Shown: positions 24,570 to 63,319 of the stretch, piece after piece | How the letters are laid out: every line of letters begins with the position of its first letter | How positions within the stretch are numbered: the first letter of the stretch is position 1 | Assembly: GCA_902491765.1 (NCBI GenBank) | Contig: CABUIY010000007.1 | Span: forward strand, 5,204 to 69,203 | DNA length: 64,000 bases | Origin: an uncultured Collinsella sp. | Lineage (GTDB): Bacteria > Actinomycetota > Coriobacteriia > Coriobacteriales > Coriobacteriaceae | Direction of reading: 5' to 3' | Position numbers and translations under genes: made by a program | The notes under the pieces: generated by a model | Database searches by the model: none | What the model saw: only the letters and a program-made list of their open reading frames with translations | What the model was told of the DNA's origin: nothing

Positions 24570-24825
24570 ACCAGTGATCCTCCTTTATGGATCTGTGCCG
24601 CCCCGTGTCGTTCCGGGCGGCGTCGTACAGATTTGCCCAGCCTGCGTAAACCGCGCAGCCGGACATGGCGTTCTATCTTATCGCACCCACGTCGATGTGC
24701 CGCGGAAAAGTAGCTCATGCCCAAAGACTTGACGGAGACGAAACAATTGATGCGCCGTGGCCGTCGCCAAGGCGCGCCGCGTGCGACAATGTGCCCCAAT
24801 ACAACTGCACTCGGAAAGGCCCGCC

Positions 24826-56507: not shown

Positions 56508-57659
56508 CTAGTAGATCCTTTCGACCTCCTTGGTCAAGGCCCTGAAAAGATCCCCAGCTGAGGGGTCTGCCCCAGGACACAGCGATTGCCAGGCACCCGT
56601 TTCTCCGATGGTGCCCGCACTCGTCATAACAAGATCGTCGCTCCGCCTGCGAATGGAGACACTAACGGAGCGGCCATTATGGAACCCATGGATATCGACT
56701 TTATTTATGCGCCCATCAGCTAGATAACTAATCATGACATTGATGCTGTCACCATACTCCGGCAATTCGAAGCCGTGGGAATCCATCAATAGCTTCACGT
56801 CCTGATGGTAAATGCGGGCCTCGACGACATTCTTGGGCATCTTCCCCGTCTTTGTTGGAGAGCAAAAGCTGATGCTTGGCTCCTCTTCGCTCATGCCTCG
56901 GTCAAACCTAAGCATGCACGGGCATACCGACTCAATGGTTCGCAAGGCGTCCGCCGCGACCTTTTCCTCGGTAAACATCTCCACGTCGATGCCGTTTTCT
57001 TCCATATAGGCACGGTTTTTACGTTGAAGCTCTAGCCGAGCCGCAGCCTCCCCATCTCCACGCTGTTCCCAATTTCCGGAGTCGGCGACATTTCGATCGA
57101 ATGTAGAATCAACGGAACATGGCGCTTGCTGTTGAGTCTGATCACTGTCGCCGAGACGCCTTAGCTCGGAGCGTCTCATCAGTAGTGTCACAATATCAAA
57201 CAGCCAACCAAATCCAAAAAGGCCAAAGGTAAAGAGATATAGAAAGAAGCTACCCCACATCCGTGCATACGCCCTATGAGCGCCCGACCACCCAAGAAGG
57301 AAGCATAGCAAAAGCGCCTTGTTTGCCCTGTCAACCGACGTAATCTCTCGAGTGAGAGATTTCTGTTCAGGCTTCGTCAAAGGTGTAATTTCATGCGATG
57401 AAACAGTAATTGAGGACGTCCTTGACGCCGAGCTCCGAGCGCCTGATTTAGCAACGGCGCGAGCGACATCCCCAACTCCGACGGTCGTTCTGCTGTATAC
57501 GGCATTGTAAGCAGCCTTCTTCGGATTTTTGATCCACCCCATGCCCTTCTTACCATAGCCGGGGATTATCGCCCGCTTTACCGCGCGCTTCGCTCTGCCG
57601 GTCGTTCTTGCCTTGAGTGATGTCTTTAGATTCGGCTTACGCAGCCCGACCTTTACCAT
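56508..57659 (-). CDS. TM2-domain membrane protein with a basic N-terminal motif and an uncharacterised C-terminal domain
   Basis: The TM2-like segment reads LLLCFLLGWSGAHRAYARMWGSFFLYLFTFGLFGFGWLFDIVTLLM. The N-terminus reads KPNLKTSLKARTTGRAKRAVKRAIIPGYGKKGMGWIKNPKKAAYNAVY. The start is at MVKVGL (57657-57659, RBS GGAG). The DNA is visibly more AT-rich than its surroundings. Confidence 0.7.
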   Translation of the reverse strand: MVKVGLRKPNLKTSLKARTTGRAKRAVKRAIIPGYGKKGMGWIKNPKKAAYNAVYSRTTVGVGDVARAVAKSGARSSASRTSSITVSSHEITPLTKPEQKSLTREITSVDRANKALLLCFLLGWSGAHRAYARMWGSFFLYLFTFGLFGFGWLFDIVTLLMRRSELRRLGDSDQTQQQAPCSVDSTFDRNVADSGNWEQRGDGEAAARLELQRKNRAYMEENGIDVEMFTEEKVAADALRTIESVCPCMLRFDRGMSEEEPSISFCSPTKTGKMPKNVVEARIYHQDVKLLMDSHGFELPEYGDSINVMISYLADGRINKVDIHGFHNGRSVSVSIRRRSDDLVMTSAGTIGETGAWQSLCPGADPSAGDLFRALTKEVERIY

Positions 57660-57770
57660 ATTTCTACTCCATCCCCTAGGAACCCCACACCGGGGTGCAC
57701 GAGCACGCCTGGGTCTCCCCGTTTTCAAGCGCCCCGTGTTTGCCTAATGTTCACGCCCTTTCGGACTCTA

Positions 57771-57784
57771 ATCCCCAGCTGCCA
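57771..57784 (+). repeat. Plus-oriented fragment resembling the tRNA-Ser T-stem/acceptor 3' end
   Basis: ATCCCCAGCT-GCCA compares with the tRNA-Ser 3' end ATCCCCAGCTCTCCGCCA. The preceding CGCCCTTTCGGACTCTA resembles the right end of the 57836-57971 element. Confidence 0.5.
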
Positions 57785-57835
57785 TTCTTGATAATAAAAA
57801 AGGGCCCCAAATGGGACCCTTCTTCAAAGTCATAC

Positions 57836-57971
57836 TGGCGGAGAGCTGGGGATGTCCGGGCATGCTGCGCATGCCCTCCGGCTTCAAAGCCTGGCGGCTT
57901 TTCGCCCACGGGCTACAAACGCTTTCGCGTTTGCTTAACGCCCGTGCCCTCTCGGGTTCGAATCCCCAGCT
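57836..57971 (-). repeat. 136-nt GC-rich multi-hairpin element capped by the last 17 nt of tRNA-Ser (incl. CCA) with its own terminator copy
   Basis: The plus strand starts TGGCGGAGAGCTGGGGA (= tRNA-Ser 3' end). Hairpins follow: GGGCATGC-tgc-GCATGCCC, CACGGGC..GCCCGTG enclosing AAACGC-tttc-GCGTTT, then GGGTTCGAATCCCCAGCT. The ends AGCTGGGGA / TCCCCAGCT are inverted repeats. The downstream 57-nt block (terminator plus 3' end) duplicates 57985-58042. Confidence 0.75.
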
Positions 57972-58025
57972 AACGTGGTTCAACTAAAAAAGGGCCCCTT
58001 TCGGAACCCTTCTTTAAAGTCTTAC

Positions 58026-58116
58026 TGGCGGAGAGCTGGGGATTCGAACCCCAGATGCCCTTTTGGGGCATACTCGCTTAGCAGGCGAGCACCTTCGGCC
58101 TCTCGGTCAGCTCTCC
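58026..58116 (-). tRNA. tRNA-Ser (anticodon GCU), class II, CCA encoded
   Basis: The hand-folded sequence is GGAGAGC-TG-ACCGAGAGGCCGAAGGT-GCTCGCCTGCTAAGCGAGT-ATGCCCCAAAAGGGCAT-CTGGGGTTCGAATCCCCAG-CTCTCC-G-CCA. The anticodon loop is CTGCTAA. Confidence 0.92.
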
Positions 58117-58221: not shown

Positions 58222-58276
58222 TCTCAACCTGTAACATCTGCAGGCCGTAATCCCCTCCAGATGTTACAGGTTGAGA
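58222..58276. repeat. 19-bp perfect-stem hairpin downstream of the ATPase paralog
   Basis: TCTCAACCTGTAACATCTG (58222-58240) pairs with CAGATGTTACAGGTTGAGA (58258-58276). No T-run follows it. Confidence 0.8.
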
Positions 58277-58325: not shown

Positions 58326-59408
58326 TTAGTCCTCTCGAACGGTCTCCAACAGATAATCGCGCATGTACGGAATTGCAAACGAAACACAGCCATAGCCCGC
58401 GGGCTCAATCAACCCCGCATCGATCAGACGCTTGCGATATGACCCAACTTTGTTCGCCGACAAACCCATCTTCTTGGCGATATCGCCGTTGGCGATATCG
58501 ACGCCCTCGCATTGAGCCATCGCCGCGAGATACTGAAACTGCCGTTCCGACACCCTGCGCAGCGCTGGGGCAATCACCATAGCATTAAAGCTATCAAGAG
58601 CCGCCTGGATACCCTTACGAGCCGCCTCTTCGCTCACGCTCTCCGCCCCACTGCGCGCAGCAACCTGCCAAGCGTAATATCCGACCAGCTGGACCATAAA
58701 GGGATAGCCTGCCGAAGCTTTTGTTAATAGCTCAGCGGCACCTTTGTCGAGCTCCTTGCCCGCTCGTCTCATCGTATCCTCAAACGATCCGCCAACTTCA
58801 AAATCGGAAAGCCGAGTAAGTTCAACATGTTTGGCTCGCTGAAGGAACGTCAACGTATCATCCACCACCACGCCATCTACCGATGTCGGCAGCCCGGCGA
58901 AAGCGAAAGCGACATTCGCTCCTTGGCGGATCAAGAGCTGCATCTCATTGCCTAGCTCGCGCATTTCCTCAGTTGAGGCATCCTGGATCTCGTCGAGCGT
59001 AATGAGCAGACCACCGCGCTTCGCAGCATCGTACATCGCCTCGCCCAGATGAGAGGCCGACTTCGACATCTCCATGGAGCCAAGGCTGACCCCTAAAATC
59101 GATGGGGAAATCGAGATTGATTCAAGACGAACGTTTCGCTGCAGAGCCTCGAGGATTCTATTGCAAAAACCAGCATTGGAGGCAACGTCAACGACCTCGA
59201 ATCCTTTTTTGCGTGCAAGGTCACCCAATGCATTAAGGAGCACCGTTTTACCTGTGCCTCGGACGCCCGAGATGCGCATGAGTCGATCGGGGGCACCAGG
59301 ACCATTCTCAAGAGCCTCGGCAAAGTCATCCAAAACAGTGTCCCGTCCGATAAGCTCAGGCGGATTCATGCCCGCCGTTGGCTTAAAGGGGTTAACAGCT
59401 TTCGTCAT
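58326..59408 (-). CDS. P-loop (AAA-type) ATPase with a C-terminal winged-helix domain; paralog of 6452-7543
   Basis: MTKAVNPFKPTAGMNPPELIGRD...GAPDRLMRISGVRGTGKTVLLN...LLITLDEIQD is collinear with the 6452-7543 protein over its whole length. The start is the ATG at 59406-59408, after GGAGGG. Confidence 0.85.
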   Translation of the reverse strand: MTKAVNPFKPTAGMNPPELIGRDTVLDDFAEALENGPGAPDRLMRISGVRGTGKTVLLNALGDLARKKGFEVVDVASNAGFCNRILEALQRNVRLESISISPSILGVSLGSMEMSKSASHLGEAMYDAAKRGGLLITLDEIQDASTEEMRELGNEMQLLIRQGANVAFAFAGLPTSVDGVVVDDTLTFLQRAKHVELTRLSDFEVGGSFEDTMRRAGKELDKGAAELLTKASAGYPFMVQLVGYYAWQVAARSGAESVSEEAARKGIQAALDSFNAMVIAPALRRVSERQFQYLAAMAQCEGVDIANGDIAKKMGLSANKVGSYRKRLIDAGLIEPAGYGCVSFAIPYMRDYLLETVRED

Positions 59409-59420
59409 TCTGCCCTCCTC

Positions 59421-59483
59421 TGCTAGTTTTAACAACTTTAACAAAGTTTAGCAACTTTAGCAGAGTTTAACAGTTTTAGCAGG
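59421..59483 (-). repeat. Six tandem 8-10 bp repeats TTTA(A/G)CA(A/G) immediately upstream of the ATPase paralog
   Basis: The plus strand reads TGCTAGTTTTAACAAC TTTAACAAAG TTTAGCAAC TTTAGCAGAG TTTAACAG TTTTAGCAGG. In gene sense the units read TGCTAAA/TGTTAAA. Confidence 0.85.
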
Positions 59484-59570
59484 CTCGGCGGCTTTATGCC
59501 TTACCAATCCTGCCGGGTCCTCCCGCCCGCGCCGATACAAATAGCGCGGTGCGGCCCCTCTATATCGCCC

Positions 59571-62012
59571 CTACCCCAGCGAGCGGTTGAGGGAGCCGAG
59601 CTCGTCGTTACCCATGGTACGCCACATTTGGAAGATGCAACCGCGCGCCAGGAAAAAGAAGCCGTTGTCGACCAGTTGCACAGCGGCATCTGCCAGCTGA
59701 TTCGTCACGGCGGACACTGGCGGCAGCTCAAGTCCAGCCTTGCGGATGGTCTCGACCGCCTCCTCGAACGTCGGAGGCTCGCTGACGCCCATCTCGTTCA
59801 TAAGGCCCTGCATTTCTTCCAGCGCGCTGCTGCCCGACTCCTCGCCGCGCGGCACTAGACGGTAACAAGCCAGCGCTAGGTCGAGCTGATCGCAATTCCA
59901 ATAGGCAAACGCCAAGCGATAGAACAGGTAGCCAATTGCAGAACGATCGCTGGCAATACGTAGGCCGTGGCGCGCCACCTCGATAATCTCGTCAAAGCGC
60001 TCCAGACGCGCAAGCACGTTGATGAGCGCAAAGTGCGATTGCATGGACGAGCGCGCCAGATCGTAAAGATGGCGCACCTCGGGCAGTGCTCGTTCAAAGT
60101 CCTCTTGCTCGGCGTAAAAGCTGCAGATCTCGTGCTGGGCAAAGTACAGCGCATCGGGCGCACGAAGGATTCGCACAGAGTCGTCTTCTTCCAATACCGG
60201 TAACACCATGCGCACCAGCTGGTTATCGCAAAACTGCGTTTGAACCGGACCTGTCGCCAAAAGCTCGGCGACAGTGCACTTAGCCTCCAACTCCTCGACA
60301 AGACGGGAAAAGCCTTCAAAAGCACCTGTACGGTCTACTTTTGCCTGCTCGCGCAATTCAACAACACGGGCCACGTATGGGTCATCGTCCTCTTCCATGA
60401 CCTCCAACTCGTCAGCCGTATCGGCAAGCAGCAGATCGCGCAGCGCCGGCGGCAGCGTGCGATGGTCATCACGCGGACGAGCATGAACCTCCGCAGGCTC
60501 AATCGTCTCCGGAGCGGTTGACTCATACGCCTCAAGCACACGCTTGCACGGCATATCGTCCATGTCCATGCTCTCAAGATCCTTGGCGACAGGCACGCAA
60601 TCGGCCAGATAGGCCGCGCGCCCAAAGAAATACGTTGCAACAACGCGCTCGCCCTGCTCACTGTCGGGAGCAGCAATCTGCACATAGCAGCGCGTGATGC
60701 AGGTGCCCGCGGCAAAACACGCTGCCGCAAGCGTGAGTGCCACGCGCGCATCGTGCTCCGCGGCCCAGATCGCGCGCGTGTCCTCGTCCAGCTCGCGCCA
60801 GGCGTCATCCTGAGCGTCGTATTCACGTTGCAGCATGGCATCAACGACAGACTGCCCAAACCGAACGAGCATAATCCCCTCGGCAACGTTTGCCCGATAG
60901 GTATAGTCGAGCCGCGTGACCACGTTGAGCGCCTCAACGATTCGCGCAAAACGGGTGCGCACGTCCCACTCGCCGCCCGGCTGGCACGAAACCGTTCCCG
61001 GCTTGGCCCACGGGTTATCGCTCGAAGCCGTATCGAGCAGTCGGGGAACATCGTTGGTCGTCTTGGCGATATGCCACGCATCAAAGAGCGCGCAGCCCTC
61101 AAGGCTCGGCGAGGATGCCGCAGGGGCCAATCCGGCCCCGATGCGCTCAAGGATGCCGGAGAGGCGGTTGAGACGGCACTCGATGGCAAGCAGCATGTCA
61201 ATCTCGTCCTGGTCCAACAGGCTACGATCAAAATTGAGATAGAAAATCTTTGAGCGATCAATGCGAGCCAGGCTCATCTCGGACTTAGCAGCGATGGTGC
61301 GCAGGCGGGGCAAGTCAATTTCGCTCATAAGGGCGGCGGCATAGCGCTCGATACCGCTCGGATTCTCGGCATGGTCAACGCGGTAAAGCAGCGTCTCGAT
61401 AGCATCGGGGAGCGGTGCCGTGTTAAAGTCCAAAAACACCTCGACCGGCTCGGGCAACTTTACGAGCTTGATCTTGTCGACAACGTTTTGCATACCCTCG
61501 TCGAGTCCGCCGGCGTCCGCCGTGTTCACAATAGCGCTTTCGGAGTTGGCAAATATCACGTAGCGCAAGAACATCGAGGCCATGAACTCACCGTAAGGAA
61601 GGGCGCGGGTCGAATTCCATGTCTCGTGGTCGGACTGCTCGCGCATGGGGCCTTCGGGAGAGCCGGCAGTTTGCGCACACGCGCGCATTGCACCGTTGGC
61701 TTTCCTTACCATAATCTCACCAATACTGGAATCCGACTCGTCAAGGACCAGTTCCATGTCGGGATCGTTGGGCAGCGGAGCCTCGCTGACGGGGCGGTCC
61801 ACCTTGTACACCTCACCCGAAACGCTTACGTAGCCCAAAAGCGACACATGACTTTTGCCAACGAACTCGACGACATAACAAGATTCATGCTGATCCTCGC
61901 CAAAGAGTTTCCAGACCACGCCATATGAGCGTCCCGCAGGCTGCTCGGGCATCGCCGGAAAGCGCTTTTTGGGATCGAGAAACCTGAGCTTGTATGTCGG
62001 ACGCTCTGCCAC
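59571..62012 (-). CDS. 813-aa protein of unknown function with a TPR-like helical-repeat C-terminal third
   Basis: Long uninterrupted ORF with protein-like composition. The C-terminal region (YFAQHEICSFYAEQEDFERALPEVRHLYDLA...GYLFYRLAFAYWNCDQLDLALACYRLV) looks like TPR repeats. I recognise no catalytic motif. The start is a GTG at 62010-62012, so it is uncertain. Confidence 0.7.
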   Translation of the reverse strand: MAERPTYKLRFLDPKKRFPAMPEQPAGRSYGVVWKLFGEDQHESCYVVEFVGKSHVSLLGYVSVSGEVYKVDRPVSEAPLPNDPDMELVLDESDSSIGEIMVRKANGAMRACAQTAGSPEGPMREQSDHETWNSTRALPYGEFMASMFLRYVIFANSESAIVNTADAGGLDEGMQNVVDKIKLVKLPEPVEVFLDFNTAPLPDAIETLLYRVDHAENPSGIERYAAALMSEIDLPRLRTIAAKSEMSLARIDRSKIFYLNFDRSLLDQDEIDMLLAIECRLNRLSGILERIGAGLAPAASSPSLEGCALFDAWHIAKTTNDVPRLLDTASSDNPWAKPGTVSCQPGGEWDVRTRFARIVEALNVVTRLDYTYRANVAEGIMLVRFGQSVVDAMLQREYDAQDDAWRELDEDTRAIWAAEHDARVALTLAAACFAAGTCITRCYVQIAAPDSEQGERVVATYFFGRAAYLADCVPVAKDLESMDMDDMPCKRVLEAYESTAPETIEPAEVHARPRDDHRTLPPALRDLLLADTADELEVMEEDDDPYVARVVELREQAKVDRTGAFEGFSRLVEELEAKCTVAELLATGPVQTQFCDNQLVRMVLPVLEEDDSVRILRAPDALYFAQHEICSFYAEQEDFERALPEVRHLYDLARSSMQSHFALINVLARLERFDEIIEVARHGLRIASDRSAIGYLFYRLAFAYWNCDQLDLALACYRLVPRGEESGSSALEEMQGLMNEMGVSEPPTFEEAVETIRKAGLELPPVSAVTNQLADAAVQLVDNGFFFLARGCIFQMWRTMGNDELGSLNRSLG

Positions 62013-62114
62013 GAAATATCACCCTGATCGGTCGCTTGAAGAAGGAGTGGTCGCGAATAAGTCGCGACATCTACTCGGAATCTTACACGAGTCGATAAGA
62101 AATCGTCCGCTTCA

Positions 62115-62158
62115 CGCCCGCGCCTCGACCGAGGTTCGAATCCATGCAGTGCTTACGT
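62115..62158 (-). repeat. Truncated copy of the 5' part of the Arg-capped element
   Basis: CGCCCGCGCCTCGACCGAGGTTCGAATCCATGCAGTGCTTACGT matches the right end of the 151-nt element and then diverges. Confidence 0.7.
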
Positions 62159-62197
62159 AAAAGAAAAGCCCCCGTTGCCGGGAGCTTTAATCTCAAA

Positions 62198-62348
62198 TGG
62201 TGCGGCGTATAGGATTCCGCGCATCCGCTGCGCGGATCCGCACCGGCTTCGCCCGCCTGCCGGCGTGCTCGCCCGCTCGCTAAAAACGCCCCGCGTTTTC
62301 TTGGCGCTCGCGCCTCGACCGAGGTTCGAATCCATGCAGCGGCGACAT
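62198..62348 (-). repeat. 151-nt GC-rich multi-hairpin element ending in the last 20 nt of tRNA-Arg incl. CCA (copy 1)
   Basis: In minus-strand sense it reads ATGTCGCCGCTGCATGGATTCGAACCTCGGTCGAGG...AAAACGCGGGGCGTTTT...CGCCGGCAGGCGGGCGAAGCCGGTG...CCGCGCAGCGGATGCGCGG-AATCCTATACGCCGCACCA. A hairpin terminator follows at 62159-62197. Confidence 0.85.
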
Positions 62349-62387: not shown

Positions 62388-62464
62388 TGGTGCGGCGTAT
62401 AGGATTCGAACCTATGACGTTCTGATTCGTAGTCAGACCCTCTATCCAGCTGAGGTAACGCCGC
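62388..62464 (-). tRNA. tRNA-Arg (anticodon ACG), CCA encoded, copy 1
   Basis: The hand-folded sequence is GCGGCGT-TA-CCTCAGCTGGATAGAGG-G-TCTGACTACGAATCAGA-ACGTC-ATAGGTTCGAATCCTAT-ACGCCGC-A-CCA. Confidence 0.93.
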
Positions 62465-62505: not shown

Positions 62506-62622
62506 GCGTTTTTCAAAAAAAGTTATTGAATTTGATTTTTACTCATTTTGACCACTTGATGCGATCTTCGACGCATCGCGATATAAGAAAAGCCTCCGTT
62601 ACCGGAGGCTTTAAAATTCAAT

Positions 62623-62773
62623 TGGTGCGGCGTATAGGATTCCGCGCATCCGCTGCGCGGATCCGCACCGGCTTCGCCCGCCTGCCGGCGTGCTCGCCCG
62701 CTCGCTAAAAACGCCCCGCGTTTTCTTGGCGCTCGCGCCTCGACCGAGGTTCGAATCCATGCAGCGGCGACAT
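62623..62773 (-). repeat. 151-nt tRNA-Arg-capped element (copy 2)
   Basis: Identical to copy 1 by my reading. Its downstream terminator (62584-62622) carries compensatory stem changes (GCCTCCGTTACCGGAGGC). Confidence 0.85.
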
Positions 62774-62812: not shown

Positions 62813-62889
62813 TGGTGCGGCGTATAGGATTCGAACCTATGACGTTCTGATTCGTAGTCAGACCCTCTATCCAGCTGAGGTAACGCCGC
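62813..62889 (-). tRNA. tRNA-Arg (anticodon ACG), copy 2
   Basis: Identical to copy 1. Confidence 0.93.
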
Positions 62890-62901
62890 AACGCACGGAT
62901 T

Positions 62902-62930
62902 ATTATGCACGTGACCCCTCGATGGGTCAA
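62902..62930 (-). promoter_or_regulatory. Promoter of tRNA-Arg copy 2
   Basis: On the minus strand, TTGACC (62925-62930), a 17-nt spacer, then CATAAT (62902-62907). Confidence 0.7.
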
Positions 62931-62970
62931 GCGACAATTTGGAAAAATTTTACGAAGTGATGATTAAGAT

Positions 62971-63013
62971 GCTCGCGCCTCGACCGAGGTTCGAATCCGT
63001 GCGGTGCCGGCGT
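62971..63013 (-). repeat. Truncated, diverged copy of the 5' part of the Arg-capped element
   Basis: GCTCGCGCCTCGACCGAGGTTCGAATCCGTGCGGTGCCGGCGT. Confidence 0.7.
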
Positions 63014-63052
63014 AAAAGAAAAGCCCCCGTTGCCGGAAGCTTCAAGTTCAAT

Positions 63053-63203
63053 TGGTGCGGCGTATAGGATTCCGCGCATCCGCTGCGCGGATCCGCACCG
63101 GCTTCGCCCGCCTGCCGGCGTGCTCGCCCGCTCGCTAAAAACGCCCCGCGTTTTCTTGGCGCTCGCGCCTCGACCGAGGTTCGAATCCATGCAGCGGCGA
63201 CAT
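63053..63203 (-). repeat. 151-nt tRNA-Arg-capped element (copy 3)
   Basis: Identical to copies 1 and 2 by my reading. Confidence 0.85.
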
Positions 63204-63242: not shown

Positions 63243-63319
63243 TGGTGCGGCGTATAGGATTCGAACCTATGACGTTCTGATTCGTAGTCAGACCCTCTAT
63301 CCAGCTGAGGTAACGCCGC
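63243..63319 (-). tRNA. tRNA-Arg (anticodon ACG), copy 3
   Basis: Identical to copies 1 and 2. Confidence 0.93.

What the first reader, a model, noticed from the sequence alone, without database searches (positions are those of the whole stretch)
57771..58116. Architecture-equivalent element capped with the tRNA-Ser(GCU) 3' end, collinear with the Arg-capped element
Downstream of tRNA-Ser (58026-58116) and its terminator lies a 136-nt element (57836-57971). It ends in TCCCCAGCTCTCCGCCA, the tRNA-Ser 3' end with CCA, and it is followed by a second copy of the 57-nt block of terminator plus 3' end (57796-57852 versus 57986-58042; the terminator loops differ). A further plus-oriented partial fragment lies at 57771-57784. 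Read on the plus strand, the Ser and Arg elements are collinear. Each has the tRNA 3' cap, a GC hairpin (GGGCATGC/GCATGCCC versus CCGCGCA/TGCGCGG), CCGGCTTC, TTCGCCC, an AAACGC-loop-GCGTTT hairpin, about 25 nt of spacer, and then GGTTCGAATCC. The scaffold is the same but the cap differs to match the neighbouring tRNA. That argues for a shared mechanism rather than chance. The terminal inverted repeats are AGCTGGGGA/TCCCCAGCT in Ser and GGATTC/GAATCC in Arg.
Basis: partly seen in the sequence, partly recalled or inferred. Interest (0 to 1): 0.7.

Follow-up and report, generated by a model that had tools for sequence, protein, structure and literature searches.

The report
RtT-like structured repeats behind tRNA genes
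Just downstream of tRNA-Ser lies one copy of a roughly 135-nt folded, non-coding element whose two ends copy the neighbouring tRNA; the family sits behind at least five tRNA genes and the tmRNA gene across the gut genus Collinsella, and it is built like the long-unexplained E. coli RtT/tyrT repeats.

Summary
In tRNA sense (window minus strand) the order is: tRNA-Ser(GCU), a terminator, an inverted T-arm copy ("Tinv"), a ~100-nt core, an 18-nt "cap" (tRNA from T-loop to CCA), a second terminator, then a truncated older Tinv.

The three tRNA-Arg(ACG) genes carry homologous cores with Arg-specific ends. In Collinsella/Coriobacteriaceae genomes I found 223 full copies. Each readable copy lies 47-59 nt behind a same-strand host: tRNA-Arg, Ser, Leu, Thr, Gly or tmRNA. 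Tinv and cap always match that host.

Strains differ by exactly one ~190-nt unit, with clean empty alleles. There is no integrase nearby and no phage or plasmid copy.

The tRNA-sense strand folds into a closing helix (Tinv:cap) plus four hairpin arms. Support: 25 of 50 pairs show compensatory changes, hairpin loops are mostly GNA/GNRA, and G·U far outnumbers A·C.

The E. coli tyrT 178-bp repeat (Rfam RtT) has the same architecture, but the Rfam model does not detect these elements and the cores share no significant sequence.

Best reading: an RtT-like tRNA-trailer element, most likely acting as a sense-strand RNA, amplified by unequal recombination. How it reaches new tRNA genes is unknown. 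A folded-ssDNA, site-specific mobile element is the main rival.

The parts
58026..58116 (-). Host gene tRNA-Ser(GCU), with CCA encoded.
   Evidence: ARAGORN; Rfam tRNA model at 58029-58116.
57986..58025 (-). Proximal trailer and intrinsic terminator (GGGUUCC-GAAA-GGGGCCC-UUUUUU). This copy is absent from strains that lack the element.
   Evidence: Sequence. Empty alleles L001-L005 and L007-L010 carry only the distal terminator type.
57972..57985 (-). Variable spacer between the terminator and the element.
   Evidence: Differs completely between strains.
57950..57971 (-). Tinv: an inverted copy of the tRNA-Ser T-arm plus 3 nt of the acceptor stem. Its 5' half is the 5' strand of closing helix P1, and its 3' end feeds into hairpin P2.
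   Evidence: Inverted repeat I2, 22 nt at 95%; fold; pair counts.
57854..57949 (-). Conserved structured core. P2 is at about 57947-57956; P3 and P3a at about 57907-57946; P4 at about 57880-57906; P5 at about 57858-57876, with a GCA triloop.
   Evidence: MFE -77.4 kcal/mol, z = -6.6. Compensatory changes are seen in P2, P3a, P4 and P5.
57836..57853 (-). Cap: AUCCCCAGCUCUCCGCCA, the host tRNA from the T-loop to CCA. The first 10 nt pair with Tinv to form P1; the last 8 nt form a single-stranded tail.
   Evidence: Together with the next block it equals the native 3' end plus terminator of empty alleles.
57796..57835 (-). Distal terminator, which is the native one (GGGUCCC-AUUU-GGGGCCC-UUUUUU).
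   Evidence: Identical to the only terminator present in empty alleles.
57767..57784 (-). Truncated remnant of an older Tinv (GGCAGCUGGGGAUU), cut within the T-loop and abutting the TM2-gene segment.
   Evidence: Inverted repeat I15. Other strains continue with ...CGAACCC at this point.
62197..62342 (-). Arg-type element downstream of tRNA-Arg 62388-62464.
   Evidence: Covariance model, 139.7 bits; sequence.
62622..62767 (-). Arg-type element downstream of tRNA-Arg 62813-62889. L007 has a clean empty allele at this site.
   Evidence: Covariance model, 140.2 bits; empty versus filled comparison.
63052..63197 (-). Arg-type element downstream of tRNA-Arg 63243-63319.
   Evidence: Covariance model, 140.2 bits.
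62062..62152 (-). Truncated Arg-type remnant (Tinv plus the start of the core) at the distal end of the array.
   Evidence: Covariance model, 25.8 bits; sequence.
62882..63007 (-). Stretch holding a truncated Arg-type remnant (Tinv plus the start of the core, at about 62975-63010), followed by the promoter region of the next tRNA-Arg.
   Evidence: Covariance model, 16.2 bits; promoter-like TTGACC-17-CATAAT.

Best explanation
This is one member of a Collinsella-wide family of small structured elements that live in the 3' trailer of tRNA and tmRNA genes. Architecturally it is the counterpart of the E. coli RtT/tyrT 178-bp repeat.

**Anatomy (shown).** Each element has three parts: an inverted partial copy of its host's T-arm; a conserved ~100-nt core of four hairpin arms (P2, P3 with P3a nested inside, P4, P5); and a direct copy of the host from the T-loop onward. 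On the tRNA-sense strand the two ends pair as helix P1. This closes the core into a compact multi-helix fold that imitates the T-stem and the base of the acceptor stem. In the tRNA-linked types it leaves a tRNA-like single-stranded ...NCCA tail followed by a terminator.

**How it works (inferred).**
- The functional form is the sense-strand RNA, made by read-through from the host gene.
- Its 3' end is defined as a tRNA end would be. The annotated 3' end of E. coli rtT RNA is the CCA of the first repeat's cap.
- Copy number rises and falls by unequal homologous recombination between the duplicated blocks of tRNA 3' end plus terminator, and between the cores.
- Copies at different loci exchange sequence by gene conversion.
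- New host genes are colonised rarely, by recombination at the conserved T-loop. The junction is always just after TTCRA. After that the ends are kept matched to the neighbour.

**Status of the steps.** The anatomy, the structure, the host range and the presence/absence polymorphism are shown. Transcription, processing, cellular role and the colonisation mechanism are inferred.
For: **Family and host association**
- 4 signature matches in the window against 0 in shuffles.
- More than 119 genome stretches, with titles naming Collinsella, Coriobacteriaceae or an unnamed uncultured bacterium.
- 223 full copies were found. 198 of them have a same-strand host gene 47-59 nt upstream, or one to two units further: tRNA-Arg 98, tmRNA 38, Ser 33, Leu 28, Thr 1. 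One more sits behind tRNA-Gly(CCC) in L089.

**Ends match the host**
-.

**Sense-strand structure**
- The Ser element folds with z = -6.6 on the sense strand and -4.6 on the antisense strand.
- 87.7-88.5% of cells are paired, against 30-43% when partners are slid. 16 pairs (MAFFT alignment) and 25 of 50 pairs (model-fitted alignment) show double changes. No shuffle out of 500 reached the covariation score.
- In P2-P4, G·U occupies 254 cells and A·C 13. Hairpin loops are mostly GNA/GNRA on the sense strand, and P4's is GNCA.
- P3 alternates between G-C/G-C and a tandem G·A/A·G.

**Polymorphism by whole units, with clean empty sites**
- Ser: L001 versus the window.
- Arg: L007 versus the window.
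- Leu: L013, L018 and L119 versus L011.

**E. coli precedent**
- RtT units have the same P1 (GGGGAAGGAU with AUCCUUCCCC), a cap that starts in the T-loop, an 8-nt tail and C-GNA-G hairpins. The annotated RttR RNA ends at the cap's CCA.
- My model's four best hits in the E. coli locus are the four RtT units, at 13 bits and E about 0.004.

**No mobile-element genes or sources**
- No integrase nearby and no phage or plasmid copies.
Against: - A strong intrinsic terminator lies between the host gene and the element, and no promoter-like site precedes the element. Any RNA therefore depends on read-through. E. coli RtT has no intrinsic terminator there.
- tmRNA-type copies have only a 12-nt cap, with no CCA and no terminator. 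tRNA-like 3' maturation therefore cannot be a universal feature of the family.
- P1 is only 6 bp in the Arg type, and the window's Arg element folds no better than shuffles (z = -1.2).
- Truncated copies are common, as expected of dispensable or selfish DNA.
- GNA triloops such as GCGAAGC are also hallmarks of stable DNA hairpins (from memory).
- The Rfam RtT model does not detect the elements, and the cores show no significant sequence similarity to RtT. Homology with RtT is unproven.
- No expression data were available.
- Some copy-number differences come from metagenome scaffolds with N gaps.
Confidence: 0.55

Rival explanations
1. A non-autonomous, site-specific mobile DNA element that works as folded single-stranded DNA. 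Tinv and the cap pair to rebuild a duplex copy of the host gene's T-stem/acceptor site, and the core serves as a structured loop. This would resemble integron attC sites or the CTX-phage attP(+) hairpin. A recombinase or HUH enzyme encoded elsewhere would then insert the ~190-nt unit just 3' of TTCRA in the T-loop, while the unit supplies a replacement tRNA 3' end and terminator.
For: - Filled alleles differ from clean empty alleles by exactly one unit, flanked by an 18-20-nt direct repeat that starts in the T-loop. The distal repeat plus terminator is the native one and the proximal one is diverged.
- The junction is always after TTCGA or TTCAA in six host types.
- The same core is found at six unlinked host genes with host-specific ends.
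- The structure is strand-specific, and C-GNA-G triloops are known as very stable DNA mini-hairpins (the stability is from memory).
- Truncated older copies lie distal to full ones, as successive insertions at the gene would produce.
- The structured strand is the lagging-strand template here, given the negative plus-strand GC skew and minus-strand genes (inference).
Against: - No recombinase, transposase or autonomous relative was found next to any copy, nor in phage or plasmid collections. The viral-contig hits are host flank.
- Every gain or loss seen can also be produced by homologous recombination between the 59-75-nt duplicated blocks.
- The duplicated block runs to the end of the terminator and is host-specific, which is unusual for an attP site.
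- tmRNA-type units do not carry a replacement 3' end.
- A near-invariant G·U closing pair and many sense-strand G·U pairs suit RNA better than DNA.
Confidence: 0.3
2. Scars of classical integrative elements: the attL and attR remnants of prophages or ICEs that integrated into tRNA and tmRNA genes and later lost their cargo. The conserved core would be a leftover attP arm.
For: - tRNA and tmRNA 3' ends are classical integration sites.
- Direct repeats of the tRNA 3' end flank the inserted DNA.
- In related genomes, prophages and another island do sit at the tmRNA 3' end.
Against: - Six different host genes carry the same ~135-nt element with the same internal boundaries. Independent deletions would not give this.
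- The prophages at tmRNA insert upstream of the element, at CTCCACCA, and do not carry it.
- No integrase gene is adjacent.
- Covariation that preserves hairpins on one strand is not expected of double-stranded arm-type protein-binding sites.
Confidence: 0.04
3. Nothing but local tandem duplication of tRNA trailers plus chance similarity. There would be no element family.
For: Tandem arrays and unequal crossing-over clearly occur.
Against: - The core is shared between unlinked loci and different host genes, with 0 matches expected by chance.
- The covariance model scores 110-161 bits across the types.
Confidence: 0.01

Closest known systems
RtT RNA (Rfam RF00391): the 178-bp repeats of the E. 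coli tyrT/tyrV operon, whose product is rtT RNA (RttR). Sources: Egan & Landy 1978 and Bösl & Kersten 1991 from memory; the latter is cited in PMC3318445.
   Same: - Lies directly 3' of a tRNA gene on the same strand.
- The repeat unit is trailer, then a degenerate inverted T-arm, then a structured core, then the tRNA's last ~19 nt from the T-loop to CCA.
- The closing helix joins the inverted segment to the cap: 10 bp, made of 2 T-loop nt, 5 T-stem nt and 3 acceptor nt, leaving an 8-nt tail. This is the same geometry as the Ser type.
- Hairpins with C-GNA-G loops.
- Tandem copies, and a copy between duplicated tRNA genes.
   Different: - Not detected by the Rfam RtT model, and there is no significant core sequence similarity.
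- Found in a different phylum, Actinomycetota.
- Serves at least five different tRNAs plus tmRNA rather than tRNA-Tyr.
- An intrinsic terminator precedes and follows each unit.
- The inverted T-arm is nearly intact.
- The core has four hairpin arms.
tRNA-gene integrative elements and their integrase-less derivatives (CIMEs, att-site remnants)
   Same: - Inserted DNA is flanked by direct repeats of the tRNA 3' segment that begin in the T-loop.
- The gene's 3' end is restored.
- Older copies are displaced distally.
   Different: - There is no integrase and no cargo, and the unit is only ~190 nt.
- The duplicated block extends through the host's own terminator.
- A strand-specific structured core is conserved by covariation.
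- An internal inverted T-arm is present.
Folded single-stranded recombination sites: integron attC, CTX-phage attP(+), IS200/IS605 ends and REPINs
   Same: - Imperfect inverted repeats close a structured, covarying single-stranded fold.
- The signals are strand-specific.
- The insertion point is next to a fixed pentanucleotide (TTCRA).
- Cassette-like tandem units occur.
   Different: - No IntI, Xer or Y1-transposase link has been shown.
- The paired ends are copies of the target gene rather than fixed recognition boxes.

Membership tests
RtT RNA (Rfam RF00391) / tyrT repeat | Located immediately 3' of a tRNA gene on the same strand. | tested here: met
   198 of 223 copies have a same-strand host gene 47-59 nt upstream, or one to two units further. 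The remaining 25 are at contig edges, next to masked tRNAs, or separated from the host by an island.
RtT RNA (Rfam RF00391) / tyrT repeat | The unit ends with the host tRNA's 3'-terminal ~19 nt, from the T-loop through CCA. | tested here: met
   The cap is 18 nt for Ser, Leu, Thr and Gly and 20 nt for Arg. Exception: tmRNA-type copies have 12 nt and no CCA.
RtT RNA (Rfam RF00391) / tyrT repeat | A 5' segment complementary to the T-stem 3' strand and the first acceptor nucleotides forms the closing helix. | tested here: met
   The Rfam RtT consensus structure compared with P1 here. P1 is weak, at 6 bp, in the Arg type.
RtT RNA (Rfam RF00391) / tyrT repeat | Scores above the gathering threshold of the Rfam covariance model. 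| tested here: not met
   No RtT hit at gathering, nor at E up to 10 on the Ser and Arg loci. The same model scores 133-138 bits on E. coli.
RtT RNA (Rfam RF00391) / tyrT repeat | Detectable homology of the core. | tested here: inconclusive
   My model R1's four best hits in the E. coli locus are the four RtT units, but only at 13 bits and E about 0.004. Local alignment of the cores is no better than shuffles.
RtT RNA (Rfam RF00391) / tyrT repeat | A stable RNA is processed out of the tRNA operon transcript. | not testable with these tools
   No transcriptome data were available. The terminator between host gene and element argues for low read-through.
tRNA-targeting integrative element / CIME | Direct repeats of the tRNA 3' segment flank the insert, and precise empty sites exist. 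| tested here: met
tRNA-targeting integrative element / CIME | A tyrosine or serine integrase is encoded in or next to the element, or an autonomous relative carries the same att region. | tested here: not met
   Neighbouring genes encode a TM2-domain protein, an AAA_16 ATPase and an 813-aa protein with no Pfam match. There is no phage or plasmid match. Viral-contig hits are host flank.
MITE (transposase-derived) | Terminal inverted repeats are constant within the family, and the target-site duplication is short and of fixed length. | tested here: not met
   The inverted ends change with the host gene. The duplicated block is 18-75 nt and host-specific.
IS200/IS605-type, REPIN or attC-type folded-ssDNA element | Strand-specific hairpins, and insertion next to a fixed short target with no target-site duplication created on insertion. 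| tested here: inconclusive
   The structure is on the sense strand, the junction follows TTCRA in all six types, and hairpin P5 is subterminal. But the left boundary cannot be fixed, and the proximal duplicate is host-specific.
IS200/IS605-type, REPIN or attC-type folded-ssDNA element | A cognate Y1/HUH transposase, RAYT or IntI is present in the genome. | not tested
   Whole Collinsella genomes could not be scanned with the remaining tools.

The most novel reading that the evidence does not exclude
The inverted T-arm may be a guide or splint. It is complementary both to the host's sequence up to the T-loop junction and to the element's own cap, so it could align a tRNA or tmRNA gene (or transcript) with an element-borne replacement 3' end. 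On this reading the family is a retargetable system needing no adjacent protein gene. It would act either as guide-directed insertion at the T-loop, on ssDNA or RNA, or as an RNA that exchanges or repairs tRNA 3' ends. The layout (guide, catalytic core, 3' exon) is that of a trans-splicing ribozyme. E. coli RtT would be a decayed relative.
Probability: 0.1. Interest if true: 0.9.

Novelty: new variant of a known kind. Interest (0 to 1): 0.62.

Why it matters
The E. coli tyrT repeats and rtT RNA have been known since the late 1970s, and neither their origin nor their role has been explained.

Here is an architecture-equivalent family in a distant phylum. It has hundreds of copies, six host genes including tmRNA, ends that systematically track the host, a core supported by covariation, and natural alleles with and without the element. 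This shows that the design is a recurrent and probably mobile solution, not a one-off duplication in E. coli. The design is an inverted T-arm, a structured core, and the tRNA 3' end.

It also provides comparative material to test three questions:
- Is the active form RNA or folded DNA?
- How are the ends retargeted to a new host gene?
- Does the element affect tRNA or tmRNA maturation, or integration at these hot spots?

There are practical consequences too. These repeats break Collinsella assemblies and produce chimeric contigs, and they attract spurious gene calls.

Tried and rejected
- **Primer-binding-site reading.** The antisense strand begins with 18-20 nt complementary to the tRNA 3' end (TGG...), like a retroviral primer-binding site. 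Rejected for three reasons: the tmRNA type has no CCA complement, the duplication extends through the terminator, and the structural signals are on the sense strand.
- **Phage-borne element.** Three viral-contig hits turned out to be host flank of prophages integrated at the tmRNA CTCCACCA end. blastn against phage and plasmid collections found nothing.
- **TM2-gene segment (56508-57728) as cargo inserted in the T-loop of the truncated Tinv.** One junction is at GCTGGGGATT|, but the far junction lacks the complementary half. It is just an indel.
- **Protein-coding reading.** ORFs crossing the element (57695-57973 on the plus strand, 57768-57983 on the minus strand, and a 58-aa gene call in the L011-L018 loci) have no support, and they overlap covarying hairpins.
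- **Known RNA families.** No Rfam family matches the core, either at gathering or at E up to 10.
- **Chimeric copies as evidence of transposition.** L095 joins an Arg-type core to a Leu cap, and L102 joins a tmRNA-type Tinv to an Arg cap. They lie at contig ends or on a 2.7x-coverage contig, and are most simply assembly chimeras across the repeat.
- **Sequence homology to RtT.** Not significant.
- **Literature.** Searches found no description of this family. It could still be hidden in bulk catalogues of candidate structured RNAs; I did not check their supplements.
- **Unused scan.** Any pattern specific enough to avoid noise would have returned Collinsella again.
Full report
**1. What is in the window**

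tRNA-Ser(GCU) lies at 58026-58116 on the minus strand. Three tRNA-Arg(ACG) genes lie at 62388-62464, 62813-62889 and 63243-63319, also on the minus strand.

Read in tRNA sense, the Ser locus runs in this order:
- the tRNA;
- a trailer with an intrinsic terminator, GGGUUCC-GAAA-GGGGCCC-U6 (58025-57986);
- a 14-nt spacer;
- AGCUGGGGAUUCGAACCCGAGA (57971-57950), an inverted copy of the tRNA's own T-arm plus 3 nt of acceptor. It is 22 nt and 95% complementary to 58034-58055;
- a ~96-nt GC-rich core;
- AUCCCCAGCUCUCCGCCA (57853-57836), which is the tRNA from the T-loop to CCA;
- a second terminator (57835-57796);
- a truncated inverted T-arm, GGCAGCUGGGGAUU (57784-57771).

The block of cap plus terminator is a 59-nt direct repeat at 88% identity with a 190-nt period (D3).

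**2. It is a family and not a coincidence**

The Ser element aligns collinearly with the elements behind each tRNA-Arg. A 23-base signature common to both, GGGCGA-N3-4-GCCGNCAGGC-N3-4-GAAGCCGG on the sense strand, occurs four times in the window and never in 100 shuffles.

All that carry a taxon name are Collinsella or Coriobacteriaceae.

In the loci held, nhmmer finds 223 full-length copies. Of these, 198 have a same-strand host gene ending 47-59 nt upstream, or one to two units further. The hosts are tRNA-Arg(ACG) 98, tmRNA 38, tRNA-Ser(GCU) 33, tRNA-Leu(CAG) 28 and tRNA-Thr(UGU) 1. One more copy sits behind a tRNA-Gly(CCC) cut by a contig end. The other 25 lie at contig edges, behind N-masked tRNAs, or are separated from the tmRNA body by an integrated island.

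In every type both ends are host-specific.

| Host | Inverted T-arm (Tinv) | Cap |
|---|---|---|
| tmRNA | CCGCGGAGAAUCGAACUCU | GAUUCUCCGCGC |
| tRNA-Leu | CGCAGGGACUUGAACCUGCG | GUCCUUUCGCCCGCACCA |
| tRNA-Thr | CCGGAAUCGAACCUGC | UUCCUGUCACUGGCUCCA |
| tRNA-Gly | CCGGGACUCGAACCCGCC | GUCCCGUUGCCCGCUCCA |

In all six types the identity with the host starts just after TTCGA (TTCAA in Leu) of the T-loop.

**3. Presence/absence polymorphism**

Contigs sharing identical flanking proteins differ by whole units.
- **Ser.** Nine of 18 such loci have no full element. Their single terminator is the distal copy of the filled allele, so the proximal terminator came with the element. Across all held loci the element is present at 32 of 53 tRNA-Ser genes.
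- **Arg.** Each tRNA carries 0, 1 or 2 tandem units. L007 provides a clean empty site for the position filled in the window. The insert is 190 nt, flanked by the 20-nt cap repeat, and brings a terminator variant different from the native one.
- **Leu.** L013, L018 and L119 are clean empty sites. In L011 a 68-nt block (cap, terminator, GUUAUGGG) is duplicated around CCCAU-Tinv-core.
- **tmRNA.** Arrays have a ~210-nt unit of Tinv, core, a 12-nt cap and an ~85-nt spacer, with no CCA or terminator.

Truncated copies are frequent and usually lie distal to full ones. Haplotypes of individual hairpins are shared between Arg, tmRNA and Gly types, which indicates exchange between loci.

**4. Not a prophage or ICE scar**

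The neighbouring genes encode a TM2-domain protein, an AAA_16 ATPase and an 813-aa protein with no Pfam match. There is no integrase.

The three viral-contig hits end in host DNA. Those prophages integrated at the tmRNA CTCCACCA end, upstream of the terminator and the element. Phage and plasmid collections contain nothing similar.

**5. The sense strand is structured**

The Ser element folds at -77.4 kcal/mol on the sense strand, with z = -6.6. The antisense strand gives z = -4.6, the tmRNA type -3.6, and the window's Arg type only -1.2.

The common structure is as follows:
- **P1** pairs the 5' half of Tinv with the cap. It is 10 bp in Ser, 11 bp in tmRNA, about 8 bp in Thr and 6 bp in Arg.
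- **P2** is a small hairpin.
- **P3** encloses hairpin **P3a**.
- **P4** has purine-rich GA/GAA internal loops and a GNCA loop.
- **P5** is an 8-10-bp hairpin with a triloop, sitting 4-6 nt from the cap.

On a MAFFT alignment of 26 representatives, 87.7% of cells pair, against 30-42% when partners are slid by 1-3 columns. Sixteen pairs change on both sides, and no shuffle out of 500 reaches the covariation score. On a model-fitted alignment of 74 distinct copies the figures are 88.5% against 30-43%, with 25 of 50 pairs compensated. That alignment leans towards the model by construction.

P4 is fully re-paired between types: Ser AAAGCC/GGCUUU, Gly AGGCGCC/GGCGCCU, Thr GGAUGCC/GGCAUCC. P3 alternates between GG/CC and a tandem G·A/A·G.

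Strand choice:
- In P2-P4, G·U occupies 254 cells and A·C 13. Many of these are inherited rather than independent events.
- Hairpin loops on the sense strand are GGA, GAA, GCA, GAAA, GUAA and GUGA, that is GNA or GNRA.

This favours a sense-strand single-stranded form. RNA is the more natural reading: there is a near-invariant G·U closing pair, GNRA loops and tandem G·A. However, C-GNA-G triloops are also classic stable DNA hairpins (from memory).

**6. Transcription context**

Terminator-like hairpins follow each tRNA-Arg and each cap. Promoter-like sites precede two of the tRNA-Arg genes and never precede an element. For Ser the simple scan found none, but the hairpin and U-run are visible in the sequence. 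Any RNA must therefore come from read-through of a good terminator, which counts against the RNA model.

**7. The known precedent**

I recalled the E. coli tyrT 178-bp repeats and checked them.

In K-12, four Rfam RtT (RF00391) units flank tyrT and tyrV. Each unit is made of:
- a trailer;
- GGGGAAGGAU, an inverted T-stem 3' strand plus 3 acceptor nt, followed by a degenerate reverse-complemented T-loop;
- a core with GCC-GCA-GGC and GCGC-GCA-GCGC hairpins;
- the cap AAUCCUUCCCCCACCACCA.

The Rfam consensus pairs the first and last segments and leaves CCACCACCA single-stranded. The annotated RttR RNA ends exactly at that CCA. This is the same architecture, down to the geometry of a 10-bp P1 and an 8-nt tail seen in the Ser type.

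But the RtT model gives no hit on the Collinsella loci even at E up to 10. My model's four best hits in the E. coli locus are the four RtT units, at only 13 bits. The cores have no significant sequence similarity. So it works like RtT and looks like RtT, yet membership and homology are unproven.

The function of rtT remains unknown. A role in the stringent response has been suggested (10.1101/2024.07.17.603846 citing Bösl & Kersten 1991; PMC3318445).

**8. Interpretation**

*Shown:* a genus-wide family of structured elements that live in tRNA and tmRNA trailers, have ends matched to their host, and are gained and lost as whole units.

*Inferred as most likely (0.55):* an RtT-like trailer RNA whose closing helix mimics the T-stem and acceptor base. 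Arrays breathe by unequal recombination between the duplicated blocks. Copies are homogenised by gene conversion. The family colonises new genes through the conserved T-loop.

*Main rival (0.3):* the fold is that of single-stranded DNA, and the ~190-nt unit is a non-autonomous, site-specific insertion module that restores the gene's 3' end. This fits the clean insertions, the TTCRA junction and the distal decay, but it lacks any enzyme or autonomous relative.

*Other rivals:* classical att scars (0.04) and chance (0.01) are effectively excluded.

*Most novel reading not excluded (about 0.1):* Tinv is a guide or splint for insertion at the T-loop or for exchange of tRNA 3' ends.

**9. Verdict**

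This is a real feature. It is a new variant of a known but poorly understood kind (RtT-type tRNA-linked repeats). It is not in Rfam 15 and I found no description of it in the literature I could search. Interest is moderately high.

Noticed in passing
window 24581-24664 (-): An aspS RNA motif (Rfam RF02930, 77.6 bits). It is the only non-tRNA Rfam hit in the window.
   Followed up: no
window 58222-58276: A near-perfect inverted repeat with 23-nt arms (TCTCAACCTGTAACATCTGCAGG / CCTCCAGATGTTACAGGTTGAGA). It lies between the AAA_16 ATPase gene and the 5' side of tRNA-Ser. Similar ...CTGTAACA.../...TGTTACAG... palindromes recur downstream of the Thr-type element in L093, so this may be a separate REP- or MITE-like repeat family.
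   Followed up: no
window 56508-57728 (-) and 57767-57784: The TM2-domain gene segment varies in presence between strains and in its called length (165-408 aa). It abuts the truncated Tinv exactly within the reverse-complemented T-loop: GCTGGGGATT|AGAG here, against GCTGGGGATT|CGAACCC in L004, L006 and L012. The far junction shows no matching half-site.
   Followed up: partly
L021-L023, L080, L133; L101, L102: Two kinds of integrated element occupy the tmRNA 3' end (attR ...GCTCCACCA) in related genomes. One is a prophage with a LysM-type lysin gene at its right end. The other is an island whose right end reads ...GAATGAACGCCAGCTCCACCA. Both insert upstream of the terminator and the RtT-like element.
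   Followed up: partly
L140 (minus strand), just after the tmRNA-type cap: A MITE-like insertion with long terminal inverted repeats (GTAGTCAATTTGGGACGGGGCTATTTTAGCTACCCC ... GGCAGCTAAAATAGCCCCGTCCCAAATTGACTAC).
   Followed up: no
L095 (contig end) and L102 3462-3604: Chimeric elements. L095 joins an Arg-type Tinv and core to a Leu cap; L102 joins a tmRNA-type Tinv to an Arg cap and the Arg-array flank. They are probably assembly chimeras across the repeat, but they could be real recombinants between loci.
   Followed up: partly
Leu-type copies, e.g. L011 5583-5602, L012, L007: The inverted T-arm can also fold on its own as a hairpin, with compensating variants (CGCAGG/CCUGCG, CACAGG/CCUGUG, CGCGGG/CCCGCG). 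This fold excludes P1 and P2, which hints at two alternative conformations.
   Followed up: partly
window 58326-62012 (-); L001, L008: A two-gene block lies between the tRNA-Arg array and tRNA-Ser: an 813-aa protein with no Pfam match and a 360-aa AAA_16 ATPase with an HTH domain. In some strains an IS3-family or an HTH_38-type transposase gene sits within or next to the block. Its function is unknown.
   Followed up: no
window 57695-57973 (+), 57768-57983 (-); L011-L018 58-aa gene call: ORFs and automatic gene calls run across the structured element and are probably spurious. This is reminiscent of the 'tpr' ORF annotated inside the E. coli RtT repeat.
   Followed up: no
L143 (E. coli K-12 1285800-1287700): The 5' strand of the RtT closing helix, followed by GAGAAGCUUCG, reads as a degenerate inverted T-arm of tRNA-Tyr: it matches 8 of the 11 positions after GGGGAAGGAU. 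RtT may therefore have started as the same kind of inverted T-arm element.
   Followed up: partly
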